From Escherichia phage phiK, in sequence record NC_001730.1: a stretch of 6,089 nt of DNA; one strand, given 5' to 3'. The notes under the pieces were generated by a model, which worked only from the letters and a program-made list of their open reading frames with translations, was not told where the DNA came from and searched no databases. The position numbers and the translations under genes were made by a program. Each line of letters begins with the position of its first letter. Within the stretch, counting starts at the first letter, position 1. Shown in pieces: positions 1 through 4,955 of the stretch.

Positions 1-3
1 TTG

Positions 4-31
4 TTGACATTCCCCAATTCCTTATTAGACT
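4..31 (+). promoter_or_regulatory. Candidate sigma70-type promoter upstream of ORF1 (TTGACA N16 TAGACT)
   Basis: Perfect -35 hexamer TTGACA at 4-9, 16-nt spacer, -10-like TAGACT at 26-31 (4/6 to TATAAT). Lies about 30 nt upstream of the AGGAG/ATG of the 64..432 ORF. Motif match only. Confidence 0.25.
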
Positions 32-63
32 CTTGCTTCAACGAAACGAATCAGGAGTCTTTT

Positions 64-432
64 ATGAAGCCCGCTCACTGTCTTACTCATCCCGTACTTG
101 GTTCATGGTTTTTTAAGTGTCCCGTTTATATCCGTTATGAGCACCTTCATCACGGTCGTCTTATCAAGGTTCGCGCTGTTCGTGATTTGTCCCCGCGTCA
201 GCAGCTTATTGCTAACCCTAAAAATTGCTTTGACGTTGTTATTGCTGAGATTGATGTTACTTATGGCTCCATTACTTGGTTTGACTATGAGCATGAGGAG
301 TATGATGAGTTTGAGCCTGATGTTATAAATGGCCTCGTTAACTATATTGATATTCCTCACGTCATTCGTTCTGAGGAAGACCCTACTGTTTCTGTTGATG
401 ATATGGATTGGCTTTATGAAATTGCGGAGTAA
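64..432 (+). CDS. Hypothetical protein (about 122 aa), basic His/Cys-containing N-terminal half and strongly acidic C-terminal half; first ORF of the H-A spacer module
   Basis: ATG 64 preceded by AGGAG at 53-57 (6-nt spacing); stop TAA 430-432. Third codon positions are about 55-60% T by hand count, the same bias as canonical microvirus genes. No similarity to proteins A-H that I can recognise. Confidence 0.5.
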   Translation: MKPAHCLTHPVLGSWFFKCPVYIRYEHLHHGRLIKVRAVRDLSPRQQLIANPKNCFDVVIAEIDVTYGSITWFDYEHEEYDEFEPDVINGLVNYIDIPHVIRSEEDPTVSVDDMDWLYEIAE

Positions 433-435
433 ATT

Positions 436-525
436 ATGGAGACTGTTATCGGAAAATTTATTGCTCTGGCTGTTGTTGCTTTTATGCTGTATGGAATTAC
501 CCGCTTAATTTTGAGGTTCCCGTGA
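436..525 (+). CDS. Hypothetical 29-aa hydrophobic peptide (METVIGKFIALAVVAFMLYGITRLILRFP), predicted single transmembrane helix
   Basis: ATG 436 lies 3 nt after the ORF1 stop, with GGAG at 426-429 (6-nt spacing); stop TGA 523-525. Hydrophobic core FIALAVVAFMLYGI flanked by K7 and R23/R27. Same frame as ORF1. Too short for codon statistics to be decisive. Confidence 0.35.
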   Translation: METVIGKFIALAVVAFMLYGITRLILRFP

Positions 526-734
526 AGTATTTTAGTTTGGTTGATGAACATTATGCTTATTGCCCTGATACGAGGATTTTGCACATTACTCGCAGTCGTG
601 TTTCTGACCCTCGCTACGAGCGTTGCTTTCTTACTGATGAGGAGCATTTTGCGCTATTGGATTGGTTGAAAAACCGTCCAACTTGCGTTAATTCTTGGCA
701 ATCTTCTGAAATACCCTCTATATTGCCCTCATAG
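522..734 (+). CDS. Hypothetical protein (about 70 aa), GTG-initiated, translationally coupled to the upstream peptide ORF
   Basis: GTG 522-524 overlaps the TGA stop of the 29-aa ORF (GTGA); GAGG at 513-516 (5-nt spacing); stop TAG 732-734. No in-frame ATG exists, so the start must be non-ATG if the ORF is real. Third-position T about 50% by hand count. Confidence 0.4.
   Translation: MKYFSLVDEHYAYCPDTRILHITRSRVSDPRYERCFLTDEEHFALLDWLKNRPTCVNSWQSSEIPSILPS
695..724 (+). promoter_or_regulatory. Candidate gene A promoter (PA-like): TTGGCA N18 TATATT
   Basis: -35-like TTGGCA at 695-700 and -10-like TATATT at 719-724, 18-nt spacer. The predicted start site falls inside the downstream hairpin. phiX174 has its PA promoter in the equivalent H-A spacer. 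Motif match only. Confidence 0.3.
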
Positions 735-754
735 TTTCACTACGAGGGCTTTTT
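725..754 (+). terminator. Hairpin plus T5 run, intrinsic-terminator-like, at the end of the spacer module immediately upstream of gene A
   Basis: GCCCTC (725-730) pairs with GAGGGC (744-749); an inner 3-bp helix TAG(732-734)/CTA(740-742) leaves a 5-nt loop; followed by TTTTT 750-754. The 3' arm contains the GAGGG Shine-Dalgarno of gene A. Confidence 0.45.
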
Positions 755-757
755 CGC

Positions 758-2242
758 ATGGCTACCGAAATCTTTTCTGATGTTGTTAAATCTGTTTGGT
801 CGCACGCTACGGCTAAGCACGCCCATCTTCGTATGGCTGTTCAGGTTGATAATCGTAGTCGCCTTCTTTCTGATTTGGTTTACCAGTTGGAAAAACGCCT
901 CTCCGAAGAGACTCATCTGGATGATGAGACTTATGCCCTTTATGAATCTCAGACTGGCCTTTTGGAAGACCATATGGCACTGGTTCGGAAGTGTGCAGCC
1001 CAACTTGATAATAGTAACACTATAGACCACCGCACCCCGTTGGACCCTGAATGTGTTTTTCTTTTTGAGATGATTTGTCCAGGTGTCCGCTATGGTAAGA
1101 CGCTTAATTCGCTTTGGAGTAAGTATGCTGCCCAGTGGCCTGAGAAATTGATTCGTCAGGAGCTCGACATGGTCAAGCCTTTATCCTTTAAGGATGAGGT
1201 TGCCAAGTACATGGAAAAAATGCAGGAAAAAACACGCAAAAACCGCATGACTCAGAAAGTTATCAATGAGATGCGTATTGCTCACCAGAAAGGCTGGTTC
1301 TTTGTGTTTGACACGTTGACCCTTGCCGATGACCGTTTGCAGGCATTCAATGAAAACCCCAATGCTCTTCGTGATTATTTTAGGACTGTTGGTCGAGCTG
1401 TTCTGCGCGCTGAAGGTCGTTCGGTTAAGGATTCCTACAACGACTGCTATCGCTATCTTTGTGTGCCGGAGTTTGGAGGTCAGCACGGTCGTCTTCATTG
1501 GCACGTTGTGCATATGGTGCGGACTCTTCCTTTGGGAAGTCATGACCCTAACTTCGGTCGCCCGGTACGTAATTATCGCCAGATTAACTCGTTCCGTGGC
1601 ATGTGGCCCTATGGCTTTACGCAACCGATAGCCGTTCGTTATCAACATGACGCTTATTCTCGCAAAGGTTGGTTATGGCCTGTTGACAAATCAGGAAAAG
1701 CAATGCAGAGTAAGCCGTATCAGGCGGTCGCATGGTATGTGACCAAGTATGTAGCTAAGCAATCTGACCAGCGTCAGAAGGCTATTACCGAGAGACAAAA
1801 GAAATGCAAGAATCCATTAATGGCAATCTGTCTGAAGAAAGAATTTCGGGTGCGCAGCAGCCGGAAGCTTGGAATGGAGCTCCCGTCAATGGCTCACCTG
1901 AGCAACAAAGTGCTTCTGGAGCTGAGTCGAATCAGCTTCGATTCCAGTCCTCTTTATCAGATAGTGAAAGAGAACGCCAAAAAGCAACTGACCTTGAACA
2001 TCGGCGCGCTGCCTTTGCACGTCATTTTGGATGTGCGCCCGGAAGTGAGAAGCATGTTGAAAGCTATTCGTCGTTTGATGAAAAAGACACCAGAGTTCAA
2101 CTGGCAGAGTTCTATCGCTTCAATGACGGTCACCTTAAAAAATGGGGATATTTCTGATGAAGCACGTCAATACATTATTGATGCAGGAATTACGCCTACT
2201 GATTTGCGAGCTAAAGCGACTCAAACTTTCGGCGGTAAGTGA
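758..2242 (+). CDS. A: Gene A protein, rolling-circle replication initiator (HUH endonuclease), 494 aa
   Basis: ATG 758, stop TGA 2240-2242. Translation aligns with phiX174 A protein from ...DNSNTIDHR... onward: WFFVFDTLTLADDRL, HUH motif GRLHWHVVHM, paired catalytic tyrosines in YVTKYVAK, C-terminal ...ASMT...GGK. N-terminal 80 residues are divergent, as is usual for this family. Confidence 0.95.
   Translation: MATEIFSDVVKSVWSHATAKHAHLRMAVQVDNRSRLLSDLVYQLEKRLSEETHLDDETYALYESQTGLLEDHMALVRKCAAQLDNSNTIDHRTPLDPECVFLFEMICPGVRYGKTLNSLWSKYAAQWPEKLIRQELDMVKPLSFKDEVAKYMEKMQEKTRKNRMTQKVINEMRIAHQKGWFFVFDTLTLADDRLQAFNENPNALRDYFRTVGRAVLRAEGRSVKDSYNDCYRYLCVPEFGGQHGRLHWHVVHMVRTLPLGSHDPNFGRPVRNYRQINSFRGMWPYGFTQPIAVRYQHDAYSRKGWLWPVDKSGKAMQSKPYQAVAWYVTKYVAKQSDQRQKAITERQKKCKNPLMAICLKKEFRVRSSRKLGMELPSMAHLSNKVLLELSRISFDSSPLYQIVKENAKKQLTLNIGALPLHVILDVRPEVRSMLKAIRRLMKKTPEFNWQSSIASMTVTLKNGDISDEARQYIIDAGITPTDLRAKATQTFGGK
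1001..1030 (+). other. Viral (+) strand origin of rolling-circle replication (A-protein recognition and nick site)
   Basis: CAACTTGATAATAGTAACACTATAGACCAC matches the phiX174 origin 30-mer as I recall it (CAACTTGATATTAATAACACTATAGACCAC) at 28/30, both differences in the AT-rich spacer. Lies inside gene A at the homologous codon position (LDNSNTIDH). Expected nick between G1007 and A1008. Confidence 0.85.
1211..2242 (+). CDS. A*: A* protein, in-frame internal restart within gene A (candidate)
   Basis: In-frame ATGs at 1211 and 1220 (MEKMQEKTRKNRM...) align with the phiX174 A* start (MKSRRGFAIQRLMNAMRQAHADGWF versus MQEKTRKNRMTQKVINEMRIAHQKGWF); GGATGAGG-like SD at about 1193-1199. Inferred by homology; which ATG is used is unknown. 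Confidence 0.35.
   Translation: MEKMQEKTRKNRMTQKVINEMRIAHQKGWFFVFDTLTLADDRLQAFNENPNALRDYFRTVGRAVLRAEGRSVKDSYNDCYRYLCVPEFGGQHGRLHWHVVHMVRTLPLGSHDPNFGRPVRNYRQINSFRGMWPYGFTQPIAVRYQHDAYSRKGWLWPVDKSGKAMQSKPYQAVAWYVTKYVAKQSDQRQKAITERQKKCKNPLMAICLKKEFRVRSSRKLGMELPSMAHLSNKVLLELSRISFDSSPLYQIVKENAKKQLTLNIGALPLHVILDVRPEVRSMLKAIRRLMKKTPEFNWQSSIASMTVTLKNGDISDEARQYIIDAGITPTDLRAKATQTFGGK
1804..2157 (+). CDS. B: Gene B protein, internal scaffolding protein, 117 aa, overprinted within gene A in a different frame
   Basis: ATG 1804, stop TGA 2155-2157. C-terminus ...RVQLAEFYRFNDGHLKKWGYF matches phiX174 B ...RIQPAEFYRFHDAEVNTFGYF; acidic, low-complexity N-terminal region typical of B. Confidence 0.9.
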   Translation: MQESINGNLSEERISGAQQPEAWNGAPVNGSPEQQSASGAESNQLRFQSSLSDSERERQKATDLEHRRAAFARHFGCAPGSEKHVESYSSFDEKDTRVQLAEFYRFNDGHLKKWGYF

Positions 2243-2318
2243 CCCGGATTTTTCCCAGGAGAAAATTCATGCTGAGCTCGACTCGTTATTATGCAAGTTA
2301 TCGCGCCACTTTGACTAA
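2157..2318 (+). CDS. K: Gene K protein, 53 aa, overlapping the 3' end of A and the 5' end of C
   Basis: ATG 2157 overlaps the B stop (TGATG); stop TAA 2316-2318. Translation MKHVNTLLMQELRLLICELKRLKLSAVSDPDFSQEKIHAELDSLLCKLSRHFD resembles phiX174 K (..IKQELLLLVYELNRSGLL..KIRPILAQLEKLLLCDLS..). Below the length cutoff of the supplied ORF track. Confidence 0.75.
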   Translation: MKHVNTLLMQELRLLICELKRLKLSAVSDPDFSQEKIHAELDSLLCKLSRHFD

Positions 2319-2475
2319 GCAGTTGATGTTTCTTACAAAAGCTGATTTTACCAACGATGACGAGAAATGGCTTAATGCCTTTGGTAATCTTCTCCGTCAG
2401 TGGTTTCAGATTGAAGATTGGAAAGGCAATCATAAAAAATTGCTTGACGACTTGAAAAGACGTGATTATCTTTGA
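2269..2475 (+). CDS. C: Gene C protein (DNA maturation / switch to ssDNA synthesis), 68 aa from the ATG
   Basis: ATG 2269 with AGGAG at 2257-2261 (7-nt spacing); stop TGA 2473-2475. Matches phiX174 C (..KWLNMLGTFVKDWF.. versus ..KWLNAFGNLLRQWF..). An alternative GTG start at 2239 overlaps the A stop (GTGA), which is where the phiX174 C start sits. Confidence 0.8.
   Translation: MLSSTRYYASYRATLTKQLMFLTKADFTNDDEKWLNAFGNLLRQWFQIEDWKGNHKKLLDDLKRRDYL
2445..2472 (+). promoter_or_regulatory. Candidate PD-like promoter inside the 3' end of gene C (TTGACG N16 TATCTT)
   Basis: -35-like TTGACG 2445-2450, -10-like TATCTT 2467-2472, about 20 nt upstream of the D Shine-Dalgarno. phiX174 has PD at the equivalent position. 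Motif match only. Confidence 0.25.
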
Positions 2476-2501
2476 CTCGAATCTTACATAAGGAGTTACT
2501 C

Positions 2502-3032: not shown

Positions 3033-3062
3033 ATGGGCCTTCGGGCCCCTTAAGGATTATTA
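3033..3062 (+). promoter_or_regulatory. J-F intercistronic hairpin (GGGCC-TTCG-GGCCC) plus AAGGA ribosome-binding site for F
   Basis: GGGCC 3035-3039 pairs with GGCCC 3044-3048 across a TTCG tetraloop; AAGGA 3052-3056 sits 6 nt before the F ATG. phiX174 has a comparable GC hairpin in its J-F spacer (TJ terminator / mRNA-stabilising element). Confidence 0.5.
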
Positions 3063-4358
3063 ATGTCTAATGTACAAACTTCAGCTGAACGTGAAATTGT
3101 TGACCTCTCTCATCTTGCTTTTGACTGTGGCATGATTGGTCGCTTGAAAACTGTTTCATGGACTCCTGTTATCGCTGGCGATTCCTTTGAGCTTGATGCT
3201 GTTGGTGCTTTGCGTCTTTCTCCTCTGCGTCGTGGTTTAGCCATTGATTCTAAGGTTGACTTTTTCACTTTCTATATTCCGCATCGTCATGTTTATGGTG
3301 ATCAGTGGATTCAATTTATGCGTGATGGTGTTGATGCTTCGCCGCTTCCTTCCGTTACTACTACTAAGTATCCGGATGATGCTGGTTATGTTGGTACTAT
3401 TGTTCCTAAGAGCAACCGTATTCCTAAGTTTTTGCATCAGTCTTATCTGAATATTTATAATAACTATTTCCGTGCGCCGTGGATGCCTGAGCGTACTGAA
3501 GCTAATCCTTCAAACTTAGATCGTGATGATTCTCGTTATGGATTCCGTTGTTGCCATCTTAAAACTATTTGGTCTGCTCCTCTTCCTCCGGAAACTAAGC
3601 TCGCTGAGCAAATGGGCATTGAAAGCAATTCCATTGATATTATGGGTTTGCAGGCCGCTTATGCGCAGCTTCACACTGAGCAGGAGCGTACTTATTTTAT
3701 GCAGCGTTACCGTGATGTTATCTCCAGCTTTGGCGGTTCAACCTCCTATGATGCCGATAACCGACCGTTGCTTGTTATGCATACCGATTTTTGGGCTTCC
3801 GGTTACGACGTTGACGGTACCGACCAATCTTCCCTTGGACAGTTTTCGGGGCGAGTTCAACAGACGTTTAAACACTCAGTGCCGCGATTCTTCGTGCCTG
3901 AGCATGGTGTCATGATGACTTTGATGCTGGTTCGCTTCCCGCCTATCAGTCCTTTGGAGCATCATTATCTTGTTGGTCGTAATAATTTGACTTATACCGA
4001 CCTTGCTGGTGACCCGGCTTTGATTGGTAATTTGCCGCCGCGTGAGATTTCTTATCAGGACCTTTTCCGTGATGGTCGCCCGGGCATTAAGATTAAGGTT
4101 GCCGAGTCTATCTGGTATCGTACTCATCCGGATTATGTTAACTACAAGTATCAGTTACTTGAGGGTTTCCCGTTCCTTGATGATGCGCCCGGTACGACTA
4201 GTGGTGATGACCTTCAGAAGGCTATTCTCATTGACCATAATGACTATAATGCCTGTTTCCAGTCTCAGCAGTTGCTTCAGTGGAATAATCAGGCTCGTTA
4301 TAATGTTAATGTTTATCGCCATATTCCTACTGTTCGTGATTCTATTATGACCTCTTAA
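3063..4358 (+). CDS. F: Gene F protein, major capsid protein, 431 aa
   Basis: ATG 3063, stop TAA 4356-4358. Extensive identity to phiX174 F: MSN.QT.AER, TPVIAGDSFE.DAVGALRLSPLRRGLAIDS, YGFRCCHLK, IDIMGLQAAYA, SGYDVDGTDQ.SLGQFSGRVQQT, LPPREIS, QLLQWN, TRDSIMTS. Confidence 0.97.
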   Translation: MSNVQTSAEREIVDLSHLAFDCGMIGRLKTVSWTPVIAGDSFELDAVGALRLSPLRRGLAIDSKVDFFTFYIPHRHVYGDQWIQFMRDGVDASPLPSVTTTKYPDDAGYVGTIVPKSNRIPKFLHQSYLNIYNNYFRAPWMPERTEANPSNLDRDDSRYGFRCCHLKTIWSAPLPPETKLAEQMGIESNSIDIMGLQAAYAQLHTEQERTYFMQRYRDVISSFGGSTSYDADNRPLLVMHTDFWASGYDVDGTDQSSLGQFSGRVQQTFKHSVPRFFVPEHGVMMTLMLVRFPPISPLEHHYLVGRNNLTYTDLAGDPALIGNLPPREISYQDLFRDGRPGIKIKVAESIWYRTHPDYVNYKYQLLEGFPFLDDAPGTTSGDDLQKAILIDHNDYNACFQSQQLLQWNNQARYNVNVYRHIPTVRDSIMTS

Positions 4359-4361
4359 TTC

Positions 4362-4391
4362 ATGGGCCTTCGGGCCCATTAAGGATTTTTT
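4362..4391 (+). promoter_or_regulatory. F-G intercistronic hairpin (ATGGGCC-TTCG-GGCCCAT) plus AAGGA ribosome-binding site and T6 run
   Basis: 7-bp stem 4362-4368/4373-4379 with TTCG tetraloop; AAGGA 4381-4385; TTTTTT 4386-4391 directly before the G ATG. 27/30 identical to the J-F module at 3033-3062. Confidence 0.5.
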
Positions 4392-4955
4392 ATGTATCAA
4401 ATTTTTGTTACTAAGCATGATACCGCCATTCAGACCTCCCGTTTTTCTGTTACTGGCAGTATCACTCCTGTTGCGCCTACTGGTAATATCCCTGTTATCA
4501 ATACTGGTAATATTACTGCTGAGCATGCTGTTGTTAGTCTTTATGCTAATTTGACTGCTGGCACCTCTTCTGATGGTTCTTTTATTGTTGCTATGAAGGT
4601 TGACACTTCTCCTGCTGACCCCAATTGCGTTATCTCTGCTGGTGTTAACCTTAGTTTTGCTGGTACCTCATACCCGATTGTTGGCATTGTTCGTTTTGAG
4701 TCTGCTTCTGACCAGCCCACTTCTATTGCTGGTAGCCAGATTGAGCATTACCCAATTGAAATGTCTGTAGGTTCTGGTGGTGTTTGTTCTGCTCGCGATT
4801 GCGTTACTGTTGATATTCATCCTCGCGCTTTTGGCAATAATGTTTTTGTTGGCGTGATTTGTTCTAGTGCTAAATGGACCTCCGGTCGTGTGCTTGGTAC
4901 CATCGCTACGACTCAGGTTATTCGTGAGTATCAGGTCCTTCAGCCGCTTAAATAA
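4392..4955 (+). CDS. G: Gene G protein, major spike protein, 187 aa
   Basis: ATG 4392, stop TAA 4953-4955. Matches phiX174 G in conserved blocks: VRFES, KDCVT.D..PR..GNNV.VG and C-terminal L.QVI.E...LQPLK. Confidence 0.95.

What the first reader, a model, noticed from the sequence alone, without database searches (positions are those of the whole stretch)
2239..2271. A/K/C junction: about 30-nt segment uncouples the C start from the A stop and supplies a strong SD
In phiX174 the C ATG overlaps the A stop (ATGA). Here the equivalent position is GTGA (GTG 2239-2241, TGA 2240-2242), followed by about 30 nt (CCCGGATTTTTCCCAGGAGAAAATTC) before ATG 2269 with a near-consensus AGGAG. Either C starts at GTG 2239 (78 aa, triple overlap of the A, K and C frames) or at ATG 2269 (68 aa, independent initiation). 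K's frame reads through the whole segment, so it encodes part of K (..SDPDFSQEKIH..) while providing C's SD. C also ends 26 nt before D instead of overlapping it.
Basis: partly seen in the sequence, partly recalled or inferred. Interest (0 to 1): 0.35.

Follow-up and report, generated by a model that had tools for sequence, protein, structure and literature searches.

The report
Known start site of phage phiK gene C
The window is the small coliphage phiK, and the flagged spot is the already-annotated start of its DNA-maturation gene C, which in the alpha3 group has its own ribosome-binding site 26 bases after gene A ends, whereas in phiX174 the C start overlaps A's stop codon.

Summary
The window is phage phiK: its 68-aa C and 53-aa K match the phiK database entries exactly. 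All annotated alpha3-like relatives place C at the downstream ATG (68 aa). In 35 distinct related junction sequences, GTGA, CAGGAG and ATG 2269 never vary.

The 26-base spacer between them is the most variable stretch in the region. Its changes fall on third positions of the K frame, so K's DPDFSQEKI is kept (crude dN/dS about 0.08). They scramble the putative 10-codon C extension: 7 of 9 codons change amino acid (crude dN/dS about 1.4). Purifying selection in the C frame therefore begins at ATG 2269. AGGAG lies 7 nt upstream and is the third-strongest Shine-Dalgarno site in the genome. GTG 2239 has no usable one.

Compared with phiX174 and G4, which both have ATGA, the clade-specific difference is an 18-nt in-frame indel just after A's stop, not 30 nt. 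The next 8 bases, GAAAATTC, match phiX174 C codons 2-4.

C most likely starts at ATG 2269 by independent initiation. A minor GTG-coupled 78-aa form is not excluded but has no support. The arrangement is already known and ordinary.

The parts
758..2242 (+). Gene A (replication initiation protein, 494 aa). Its stop is TGA 2240-2242 and the last residues are ..TFGGK.
   Evidence: ORF list. Same coordinates annotated in St-1. The C-terminus aligns without gaps to phiX174 and G4 A, all three ending in GGK*.
2157..2318 (+). Gene K (53 aa from ATG 2157, which overlaps the B stop as TGATG; an in-frame ATG at 2142 would give 58 aa). K reads through the whole spacer and the C start.
   Evidence: The exact 53-aa sequence is 'K [Escherichia phage phiK]' NP_043944.1. 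It matches PHROG 8511 over its full length. Translation.
2239..2241 (+). GTG overlapping the A stop (GTGA), positionally homologous to the phiX174/G4 C start ATG. It is a candidate but unsupported alternative C start (78 aa).
   Evidence: Invariant in 35/35 sequences, but only 5 of 28 A-frame third positions vary in the A/K overlap, so the invariance is uninformative. Its only anti-SD pairing is GGCGGUAA, 1 nt from the GTG.
2243..2260 (+). 18-nt in-frame indel relative to phiX174 and G4 (CCCGGATTTTTCCCAGGA). It adds 6 codons to K and supplies AGGA of the Shine-Dalgarno site. Its placement is ambiguous by 2-3 nt.
   Evidence: Protein and DNA alignments. tblastn aligns residue 8 of the 78-aa form with phiX174 position 136. 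PHROG 1465 profile positions 5-72 match C68 residues 1-68. No second copy exists in the genome.
2243..2268 (+). 26-nt A-stop-to-C-start spacer. This is the only stretch of K not overlapped by another gene.
   Evidence: 11 of 26 sites are variable, the highest density in the region. K-frame third positions vary at 6 of 9 codons while K's amino acids are kept.
2257..2261 (+). Shine-Dalgarno sequence AGGAG for gene C, lying inside K codons CAG GAG.
   Evidence: Predicted duplex with the 16S 3' end is -7.4 kcal/mol at spacing 6-7. Only D (-8.8) and H (-7.9) are stronger in this genome. It is invariant in 35/35 sequences, including the two K-synonymous sites 2258 and 2261. The surrounding RNA is no more structured than shuffled sequence (z +1.1).
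2269..2475 (+). Gene C (68 aa, DNA maturation / ssDNA synthesis protein). ATG 2269-2271, stop TGA 2473-2475.
   Evidence: The exact sequence is 'C [Escherichia phage phiK]' NP_043945.1 / Q38037. Pfam PF12025 Phage_C scores 38.4 bits against a cut-off of 25. PHROG 1465 match. The homologous ATG is annotated in 12 relatives. 98% mean column identity.
2444..2472 (+). Promoter-like site (TTGACG, 17 nt, TATCTT) at the 3' end of C. It is a candidate equivalent of phiX174 promoter pD.
   Evidence: Consensus scan only. In phiX174, pD maps within C codons 63-75 (bioRxiv 10.64898/2026.07.25.740675). Function here is inferred.
2476..2501 (+). 26-nt C/D intergenic spacer carrying D's Shine-Dalgarno site TAAGGAG (2489-2495). 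D starts at ATG 2502.
   Evidence: The spacer length ranges from 26 to 233 nt among relatives.

Best explanation
The window is coliphage phiK (genus Alphatrevirus, the alpha3 group). The flagged segment is the ordinary, already-annotated translation initiation region of gene C.

Ribosomes load on AGGAG (2257-2261) and start at ATG 2269, giving the 68-aa C protein. This happens independently of termination of gene A, 26 nt upstream. The initiation region lies inside the K reading frame, and the 26-nt spacer is the one stretch where K is the only coding frame.

Relative to phiX174 and G4, where C starts at an ATG overlapping A's stop (ATGA), alpha3-like genomes differ in three ways:
- an 18-nt in-frame indel directly after the A stop;
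- GTG instead of ATG at the old start position;
- a start codon four codons further in, so that ATG 2269 aligns with phiX174 C residue 5.

Bases homologous to phiX174 C codons 2-4 (GAAAATTC) now serve as the last base of the Shine-Dalgarno site and the spacer to the ATG.

Shown here: the sequence anatomy, its conservation, the frame-specific substitution pattern, the predicted SD strength, and the annotation. Inferred: that ribosomes really initiate at ATG 2269 and not at GTG 2239, and that initiation is uncoupled from A.
For: Identity and annotation:
- The exact C68 and K53 sequences are the phiK entries, on a 6089-nt contig. The 78-aa form is absent from about 15 billion proteins, and all listed cluster members are 68 aa.
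- All 12 annotated alpha3-like relatives start C at the homologous ATG. Gene callers do the same on 31 metagenomic contigs.

Conservation:
- In 35 distinct junction sequences, GTGA, CAGGAG 2256-2261 and ATG 2269 are invariant.

Frame-specific substitution pattern:
- In the spacer, 6 of 9 C-frame second positions vary, against 3 of 67 in C proper (Fisher p = 3e-5).
- 7 of 9 extension codons change amino acid, against 12 of 67 in C proper (p = 6e-4). One extension codon encodes P, L, V, H or R in different sequences.
- Variant codons are 3 synonymous to 13 non-synonymous in the extension frame, against 57 to 19 in C (p = 4e-5) and 11 to 4 in the K frame. Crude dN/dS is 1.4 for the extension and 0.08 for K.
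- Downstream of the ATG, 10 of 12 variable sites in the K/C overlap are C third positions.

Initiation signals:
- The SD duplex is -7.4 kcal/mol at optimal spacing. GTG 2239 has only GGCGGUAA at spacing 1.
- The region folds no better than shuffled sequence.
- The two K-synonymous sites inside the SD (2258, 2261) never vary, while 6 of the other 7 K third positions do.

Coupling:
- In E. coli, intergenic distances of about 20 nt almost abolish termination-reinitiation coupling (PMC10666635).

Homology with phiX174/G4:
- MAFFT alignment, tblastn and PHROG 1465 profile positions 5-72 of 84 agree.
Against: - There is no direct protein or ribosome evidence for the N-terminus in any alpha3-like phage, and I found none in the searchable literature.
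- GTGA is invariant, and 4-nt overlaps are the classic context for termination-reinitiation, so some initiation at GTG 2239 cannot be ruled out.
- The last four codons of the extension (R R K/R F) show only conservative or synonymous changes, apart from rare F to C or S. They match the RKF N-terminus shared by phiX174 and G4 C. In that sub-segment the frames cannot be told apart, because SD and K constraints predict the same pattern.
- SD invariance at K-synonymous sites is only weakly significant on its own (about 0.08 by a simple combinatorial count).
- Substitution counts are distinct states, not events placed on a tree, and these phages recombine.
Confidence: 0.85

Rival explanations
1. 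Dual initiation. Most C is made as the 68-aa form from AGGAG/ATG 2269. A minority of ribosomes terminating on A's TGA reinitiate at the overlapping GTG 2239 and make a 78-aa isoform, whose amount is tied to A, C's presumed partner.
For: - GTGA is invariant in 35/35 sequences and no stop occurs in the extension.
- It is positionally homologous to the functional ATGA of phiX174 and G4.
- The 78-aa form would restore the M..RKF N-terminus seen in phiX174/G4.
- Four-nt overlaps support tight coupling in E. coli (PMC10666635).
- A second GTGA ORF junction (522-525) is annotated as a 4-nt overlap in relative Lilleven.
Against: - Residues 2-6 of the extension evolve without constraint: T/I, R/Q/L, I/T, F/L, P/L/V/H/R.
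- The absence of stops is uninformative, because every single-base change that makes a stop in that frame also alters K or the SD (my own check of the nine codons).
- G2239 invariance is expected by chance, since 23 of 28 A third positions in the A/K overlap are invariant.
- There is no usable SD at GTG 2239.
- No database entry has the 78-aa form.
Confidence: 0.1
2. C starts only at GTG 2239 (78 aa), coupled to A as in phiX174. AGGAG and ATG 2269 are then just K codons (Q-E ... H-A) and an internal methionine.
For: Positional homology of GTGA with the ATGA of phiX174 and G4. AGGAG falls in K codons CAG GAG, and K is conserved there.
Against: - The substitution pattern shows no protein-level constraint on the extension.
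- ATG and SD are invariant even at K-silent sites.
- The SD at ATG 2269 is strong and well spaced, and none exists at GTG.
- All annotations and gene calls use the ATG.
- The Pfam and PHROG profiles align from the ATG onward.
Confidence: 0.03

Closest known systems
Gene C start of alpha3, St-1, WA13 and the other Alphatrevirus phages, including the phiK reference entry NP_043945.1
   Same: Identical architecture: A stop within GTGA, a 26-nt spacer, AGGAG, an ATG, a 68-aa C, K reading through, and a non-overlapping C/D gap. C is 93-99% identical across these phages.
   Different: Only point differences. This genome has TCC where most relatives have TCT at 2253-2255, which is silent in K, and K64R in C.
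phiX174 (Sinsheimervirus) and G4 (Gequatrovirus) A/K/C junction, with an ATGA overlap of the A stop and C start
   Same: Same gene order, with K spanning the junction. The A C-termini are colinear (GGK*). The bases after the stop are homologous (GAAAATTC or GGAAATTC). C is homologous at about 43-48% identity over the core.
   Different: - The phiX174 and G4 C proteins start on the overlapping ATG and are 86 and 84 aa.
- They lack the 18-nt segment and the AGGAG.
- C runs into or abuts D: ATGA in phiX174, a 1-nt gap in G4.
- In the window, the start is 4 codons further in, C lacks the last ~14 residues, and both ends are free of overlap with A and D.
Termination-reinitiation coupling at 4-nt overlaps in E. 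coli (Huber et al. 2023, PMC10666635)
   Same: The GTGA motif at 2239-2242 has the canonical -4 geometry.
   Different: The conserved, selected start lies 26 nt downstream. That distance almost abolishes coupling in the paper's reporter assays. The codons between the two starts are not under protein-level selection.

Membership tests
Microvirus protein C (Pfam PF12025 Phage_C; PHROG 1465) | Profile match above the curated threshold | tested here: met
   PF12025 scores 38.4 bits against a cut-off of 25, residues 8-66 to profile 8-66. PHROG 1465 gives E = 1.6e-31, residues 1-68 to profile 5-72 of 84.
Microvirus protein C (Pfam PF12025 Phage_C; PHROG 1465) | Small ORF located between gene A and gene D and overlapped at its 5' end by K | tested here: met
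   A 758-2242, K 2157-2318, C 2269-2475, D 2502-2954.
Microvirus protein C (Pfam PF12025 Phage_C; PHROG 1465) | Function: switch from dsDNA replication to ssDNA synthesis and packaging | not testable with these tools
   Function is known from phiX174 work, as cited in bioRxiv 10.64898/2026.07.25.740675. Here it is inferred by homology only.
Alphatrevirus (alpha3-like) genome; specifically phage phiK | Exact identity of encoded proteins to the phiK reference entries, and matching genome length | tested here: met
   C68 equals NP_043945.1 / Q38037 and K53 equals NP_043944.1, both on a 6089-nt contig; the window is 6089 nt. The nearest records in the phage collection are St-1 at 94% and alpha3 at 90.5%.
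SD-led independent translation start | Anti-SD-complementary motif 5-9 nt upstream of a conserved AUG | tested here: met
   AGGAG 2257-2261, 7 nt from ATG 2269, at -7.4 kcal/mol. Both are invariant in 35/35 sequences.
SD-led independent translation start | Protein-level purifying selection begins at this start codon | tested here: met
   C-frame second positions vary at 6 of 9 sites upstream and 3 of 67 downstream (p = 3e-5). Synonymous to non-synonymous variant codons are 3:13 upstream and 57:19 downstream (p = 4e-5).
SD-led independent translation start | Observed N-terminus or ribosome initiation peak | not testable with these tools
   No proteomic or ribosome-profiling data for alpha3-like phages turned up in the literature searches.
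Termination-reinitiation coupled pair with a 4-nt overlap (as phiX174 A/C) | Stop of the upstream gene overlaps the start codon of the downstream ORF | tested here: met
   GTGA at 2239-2242, with GTG in frame with C.
Termination-reinitiation coupled pair with a 4-nt overlap (as phiX174 A/C) | Codons from the overlapping start onward are part of the functional protein and so under purifying selection | tested here: not met
   The extension has 7 of 9 aa-variable codons and a crude dN/dS of about 1.4.
Termination-reinitiation coupled pair with a 4-nt overlap (as phiX174 A/C) | Downstream translation depends on upstream translation | not testable with these tools
   This needs reporter fusions with an upstream premature stop.

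The most novel reading that the evidence does not exclude
The invariant GTGA may be a working relic. A small fraction of ribosomes finishing A would reinitiate at GTG 2239 and make a 78-aa C isoform in fixed proportion to A, alongside the bulk SD-driven 68-aa C. That would give alpha3-like phages two differently regulated pools of the protein that switches replication to packaging.

Separately, and with better support: the 26-nt spacer is the only non-overlapped piece of gene K in any Bullavirinae clade. Its strongly synonymous substitution pattern is clean evidence that K, which is non-essential in phiX174, is under purifying selection as a protein.
Probability: 0.1. Interest if true: 0.35.

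Novelty: already known. Interest (0 to 1): 0.1.

Why it matters
It matters little for discovery. The junction is how gene C has been annotated in phiK, alpha3, St-1 and all later alpha3-like genomes.

The modest value is comparative. It is a tidy natural example of a "decompressed" overlap, with the same three genes meeting in one clade with, and in two clades without, a stop/start overlap. It also shows that former coding bases can end up as part of a ribosome-binding region, or the reverse.

It could serve as a natural control for engineered de-overlapping of phiX174. The 26-nt spacer also gives a small clean window on selection acting on the enigmatic K protein.

Tried and rejected
- **Source of the 18-nt segment.** I looked for a second copy in the genome, which would indicate a duplication origin. 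None exists within 3 mismatches.
- **Intermediate junction types to polarise the indel.**
  - The phage collection holds only the three known clades: 24 alpha3-like records, and all others below 60% identity.
  - IMG/VR gave 12 loci, mostly the same RefSeq genomes.
  - The metagenome scan gave 2 useful loci.
  - The genome scan gave none.
  - The 5.8-billion-protein search gave a single 68-aa cluster.
  - Polarity (insertion in alpha3-likes versus deletion in the phiX174/G4 ancestor) therefore stays open.
- **RNA structure.** I tested for a structure that might hide or expose the starts and found nothing beyond shuffled-sequence level (z +1.1).
- **Solved structure of C.** None is available.
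- **Literature.** Rokyta et al. 2006, which sequenced most of the relatives, is not held in the library. The Kodaira papers describing alpha3 and phiK could not be read. No proteomics or ribosome profiling for alpha3-like phages was found.
- **Arguments considered and dropped.**
  - GTG 2239 invariance as evidence for use: most A third positions nearby are equally invariant.
  - Absence of stop codons in the extension as evidence for coding: any stop-creating single change also damages K or the SD.
Full report
**1. What the window is**

The 6089-nt window is a complete alpha3-like microvirus genome (Bullavirinae, genus Alphatrevirus). Its closest records in the phage collection are St-1 (94%), Lilleven (93.4%) and alpha3 (90.5%). 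An exact-sequence look-up shows that the 68-aa protein from 2269-2475 is 'C [Escherichia phage phiK]' (NP_043945.1, UniProt Q38037). The 53-aa protein from 2157-2318 is 'K [Escherichia phage phiK]' (NP_043944.1). Each is on a single 6089-nt contig. The window is therefore phiK.

**2. Checking the observation**

All coordinates are right:
- A ends with TGA 2240-2242.
- GTG 2239-2241 overlaps it as GTGA and is preceded, in the C frame, by TAA 2236-2238.
- The spacer 2243-2268 is CCCGGATTTTTCCCAGGAGAAAATTC.
- AGGAG is at 2257-2261 and ATG at 2269-2271.
- The ORF is 78 aa from the GTG and 68 aa from the ATG.
- K reads ..AVSDPDFSQEKIHAELDS.. across the spacer.
- C stops at 2473-2475 and D starts at 2502, a 26-nt gap carrying TAAGGAG.

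A ends at 136 and C starts at 133 (ATGA), and C/D overlap as ATGA at 390-393. G4 has the same ATGA at 1720-1723. So do phiX-like NC11 and ID45 and G4-like ID2, NC10 and ID52. A G4-like Salmonella phage, PJNS002, has ATGATGA.

**3. How relatives are annotated**

Every annotated alpha3-like genome starts C at the ATG homologous to 2269, giving 68 aa. This holds for St-1, alpha3, Lilleven, WA13, WA45, NC29, ID21, ID32, NC28, NC3, NC35 and ID62.

Automatic gene calls on 31 metagenomic contigs do the same, with A ending 26 nt before C. The 78-aa form does not exist in a collection of about 15 billion proteins. The only cluster found with the 78-aa query is 68 aa long.

**4. Relationship to the phiX174/G4 junction**

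The A C-termini align without gaps and all end in GGK*, so the A stop is positionally homologous. The GTGA here corresponds to ATGA in phiX174 and G4.

Directly after the stop, phiX174 reads GAAAATTCGACC and G4 reads GGAAATTCAATC. The window reads CCCGGATTTTTCCCAGGA followed by GAAAATTCATGC. Three independent comparisons agree on what this means:
- MAFFT aligns the 78-aa form as M-[TRIFPR]-RKF against MRKF, and K shows a matching 6-residue gap.
- tblastn aligns residue 8 of the 78-aa form with phiX174 nucleotide 136, the second C codon.
- The cross-clade PHROG 1465 profile aligns C68 residues 1-68 to profile positions 5-72 of 84.

The clade-specific difference is therefore an 18-nt in-frame indel (2243-2260, placement ambiguous by 2-3 nt), not about 30 nt. 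ATG 2269 aligns with phiX174 C residue 5 (Asp; Asn in G4). The bases that encode R-K-F in phiX174 and G4 form, here, the last base of the SD and the SD-to-ATG spacer.

At the other end, C68 stops about 14 residues before phiX174 C. In phiX174 that tail overlaps promoter pD and the D ribosome-binding site (bioRxiv 10.64898/2026.07.25.740675).

No second copy of the 18-mer exists in the genome. No intermediate lineage was found. Whether this is an insertion in alpha3-likes or a deletion in the phiX174/G4 lineage is undetermined.

**5. Which start is under selection**

I collected 58 alpha3-like loci, which give 35 distinct, gap-free sequences over window positions 2100-2475. They are 91-97% identical to the window.

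*Variability by segment.* GTGA, ATG 2269 and CAGGAG 2256-2261 are invariant. The spacer is the most variable segment:

| Segment | Variable sites |
|---|---|
| Spacer 2243-2268 | 11 of 26 (42%) |
| C-only region | 53 of 154 (34%) |
| K/C overlap | 12 of 47 (26%) |
| A/K overlap | 13 of 82 (16%) |

This fits a single, lightly constrained reading frame, not two.

*Where the changes fall.* In the spacer, variation sits at K-frame third positions (6 of 9). K's peptide DPDFSQEKI is kept in 34-35 of 35 sequences. The Ser codon at 2253 appears as TCT, TCC, TCA, TCG and AGT.

Those same sites are second positions of the putative C extension. Its residues vary as T/I, R/Q/L, I/T, F/L, P/L/V/H/R, K/R and F/Y/C/S.

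*Tests.*

| Measure | Extension (2242-2268) | C proper (2272-2472) | Fisher p |
|---|---|---|---|
| C-frame second positions variable | 6 of 9 | 3 of 67 | 3e-5 |
| Codons with amino-acid variation | 7 of 9 | 12 of 67 | 6e-4 |
| Variant codons, synonymous : non-synonymous | 3 : 13 | 57 : 19 | 4e-5 |

In the K frame of the spacer, variant codons are 11 synonymous to 4 non-synonymous. Crude dN/dS is about 1.4 for the extension frame and about 0.08 for K.

Immediately downstream of the ATG the phase flips: 10 of 12 variable sites in the K/C overlap are C third positions and none are C second positions. C68 itself has 98% mean column identity, and its first 28 residues are invariant among the 13 annotated genomes. 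Protein-level selection in the C frame thus begins at ATG 2269.

*Caveats.* The counts are distinct states rather than events on a tree, and these phages recombine. Within the last four extension codons (R R K/R F) the K, SD and C-extension hypotheses predict the same pattern and cannot be separated.

**6. Initiation signals**

The predicted duplex of the 20 nt upstream of ATG 2269 with the 16S 3' end is -7.4 kcal/mol, with the paired block 6 nt from the ATG. Only D (-8.8) and H (-7.9) are stronger in this genome.

GTG 2239 pairs only through GGCGGUAA, 1 nt from the start codon, which is not a functional geometry. The region 2215-2305 folds no better than shuffled sequence (z +1.1), so the site should be accessible.

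The two K-silent sites inside the SD (2258, 2261) never vary, while six of the other seven K third positions in the spacer do. This suggests selection on the SD itself, but weakly (about 0.08 by simple combinatorics).

Reporter work in E. coli shows that termination-reinitiation coupling is almost lost at intergenic distances of about 20 nt (PMC10666635). Initiation at ATG 2269 is therefore very probably independent of A termination. This step is inferred, not shown.

**7. Could GTG 2239 still be used?**

It keeps the canonical -4 overlap and is invariant. However, only 5 of 28 A-frame third positions vary in the A/K overlap, so invariance is expected anyway.

The lack of stop codons in the extension is also uninformative. 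Every single-base change that creates one also changes K or the SD.

A minor 78-aa isoform made by reinitiation is therefore not excluded, but nothing supports it. I give it about 0.1, and a GTG-only start about 0.03.

**8. Verdict**

The 'about 30-nt insert' is really an 18-nt indel plus re-used ancestral bases.

The arrangement is the standard, long-annotated organisation of phiK and all alpha3-like phages, so it is already known and of low interest.

The small points worth keeping are:
- the natural contrast between overlapped (phiX174, G4) and non-overlapped (alpha3-like) versions of the same junction;
- the use of the 26-nt K-only stretch as clean evidence that K is under purifying selection.

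Noticed in passing
window 2243-2268: This is the only part of gene K not overlapped by A or C in any of the three Bullavirinae clades. Across 35 distinct sequences K's peptide DPDFSQEKI is essentially invariant, while third positions are saturated (Ser codon seen as TCT/TCC/TCA/TCG/AGT). Crude dN/dS is about 0.08. This is clean evidence that K, reported non-essential in phiX174, is under purifying selection.
   Followed up: partly
window 2142-2159: The K start is ambiguous. ATG 2142 gives 58 aa and is used in the St-1 record. ATG 2157 gives 53 aa, overlaps the B stop as TGATG, and is used in the alpha3, WA13 and phiK records. The phiX174/G4 alignment favours 2157, and neither has a good SD.
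   Followed up: partly
window 1-757 (H-to-A 'intergenic' region): There are three tandem plus-strand ORFs. The first runs 64-432 (122 aa from ATG 64, with AGGAG at 53-57). The second runs 436-525 (29 aa, hydrophobic). The third runs 522-734 (70 aa, GTG start overlapping the previous stop as GTGA). Lilleven annotates the homologues as hypothetical proteins; the other alpha3-like records examined (11 of 12) annotate nothing in this region. None matches any PHROG.
   Followed up: partly
window 2476-2501 and homologous spacers in L006-L014, L037-L067: The C/D intergenic spacer is highly length-variable among alpha3-like phages: 26, 28 and 40-43 nt in most, 51 and 73 nt in single genomes, and 233 nt in NC29. 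NC3 carries tandem copies of GCTCTCTACATTTGA there.
   Followed up: no
window 2444-2472: A sigma-70-like site (TTGACG, 17 nt, TATCTT) lies in the last codons of C. This is the position homologous to where phiX174 promoter pD maps within C. C's stop follows immediately, so the D transcript leader would lie in the C/D spacer.
   Followed up: no
window 3033-3065 and 4362-4394: A near-identical ~30-nt element, ATGGGCCTTCGGGCCC(C/A)TTAAGGATT.., occurs twice. One copy follows J and precedes F; the other follows F and precedes G. Each has a GC-rich hairpin (GGGCC-TTCG-GGCCC) followed by the SD AAGGA for the next gene.
   Followed up: no
L035 (Salmonella phage PJNS002) 2728-2740: This G4-like phage has ATGATGA at the A/C junction. 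The record annotates C from the second ATG (a 1-nt overlap with A), and its C N-terminus is M(M)NFNL rather than MRKFNL. The first residues of C therefore vary outside the alpha3 group as well.
   Followed up: no
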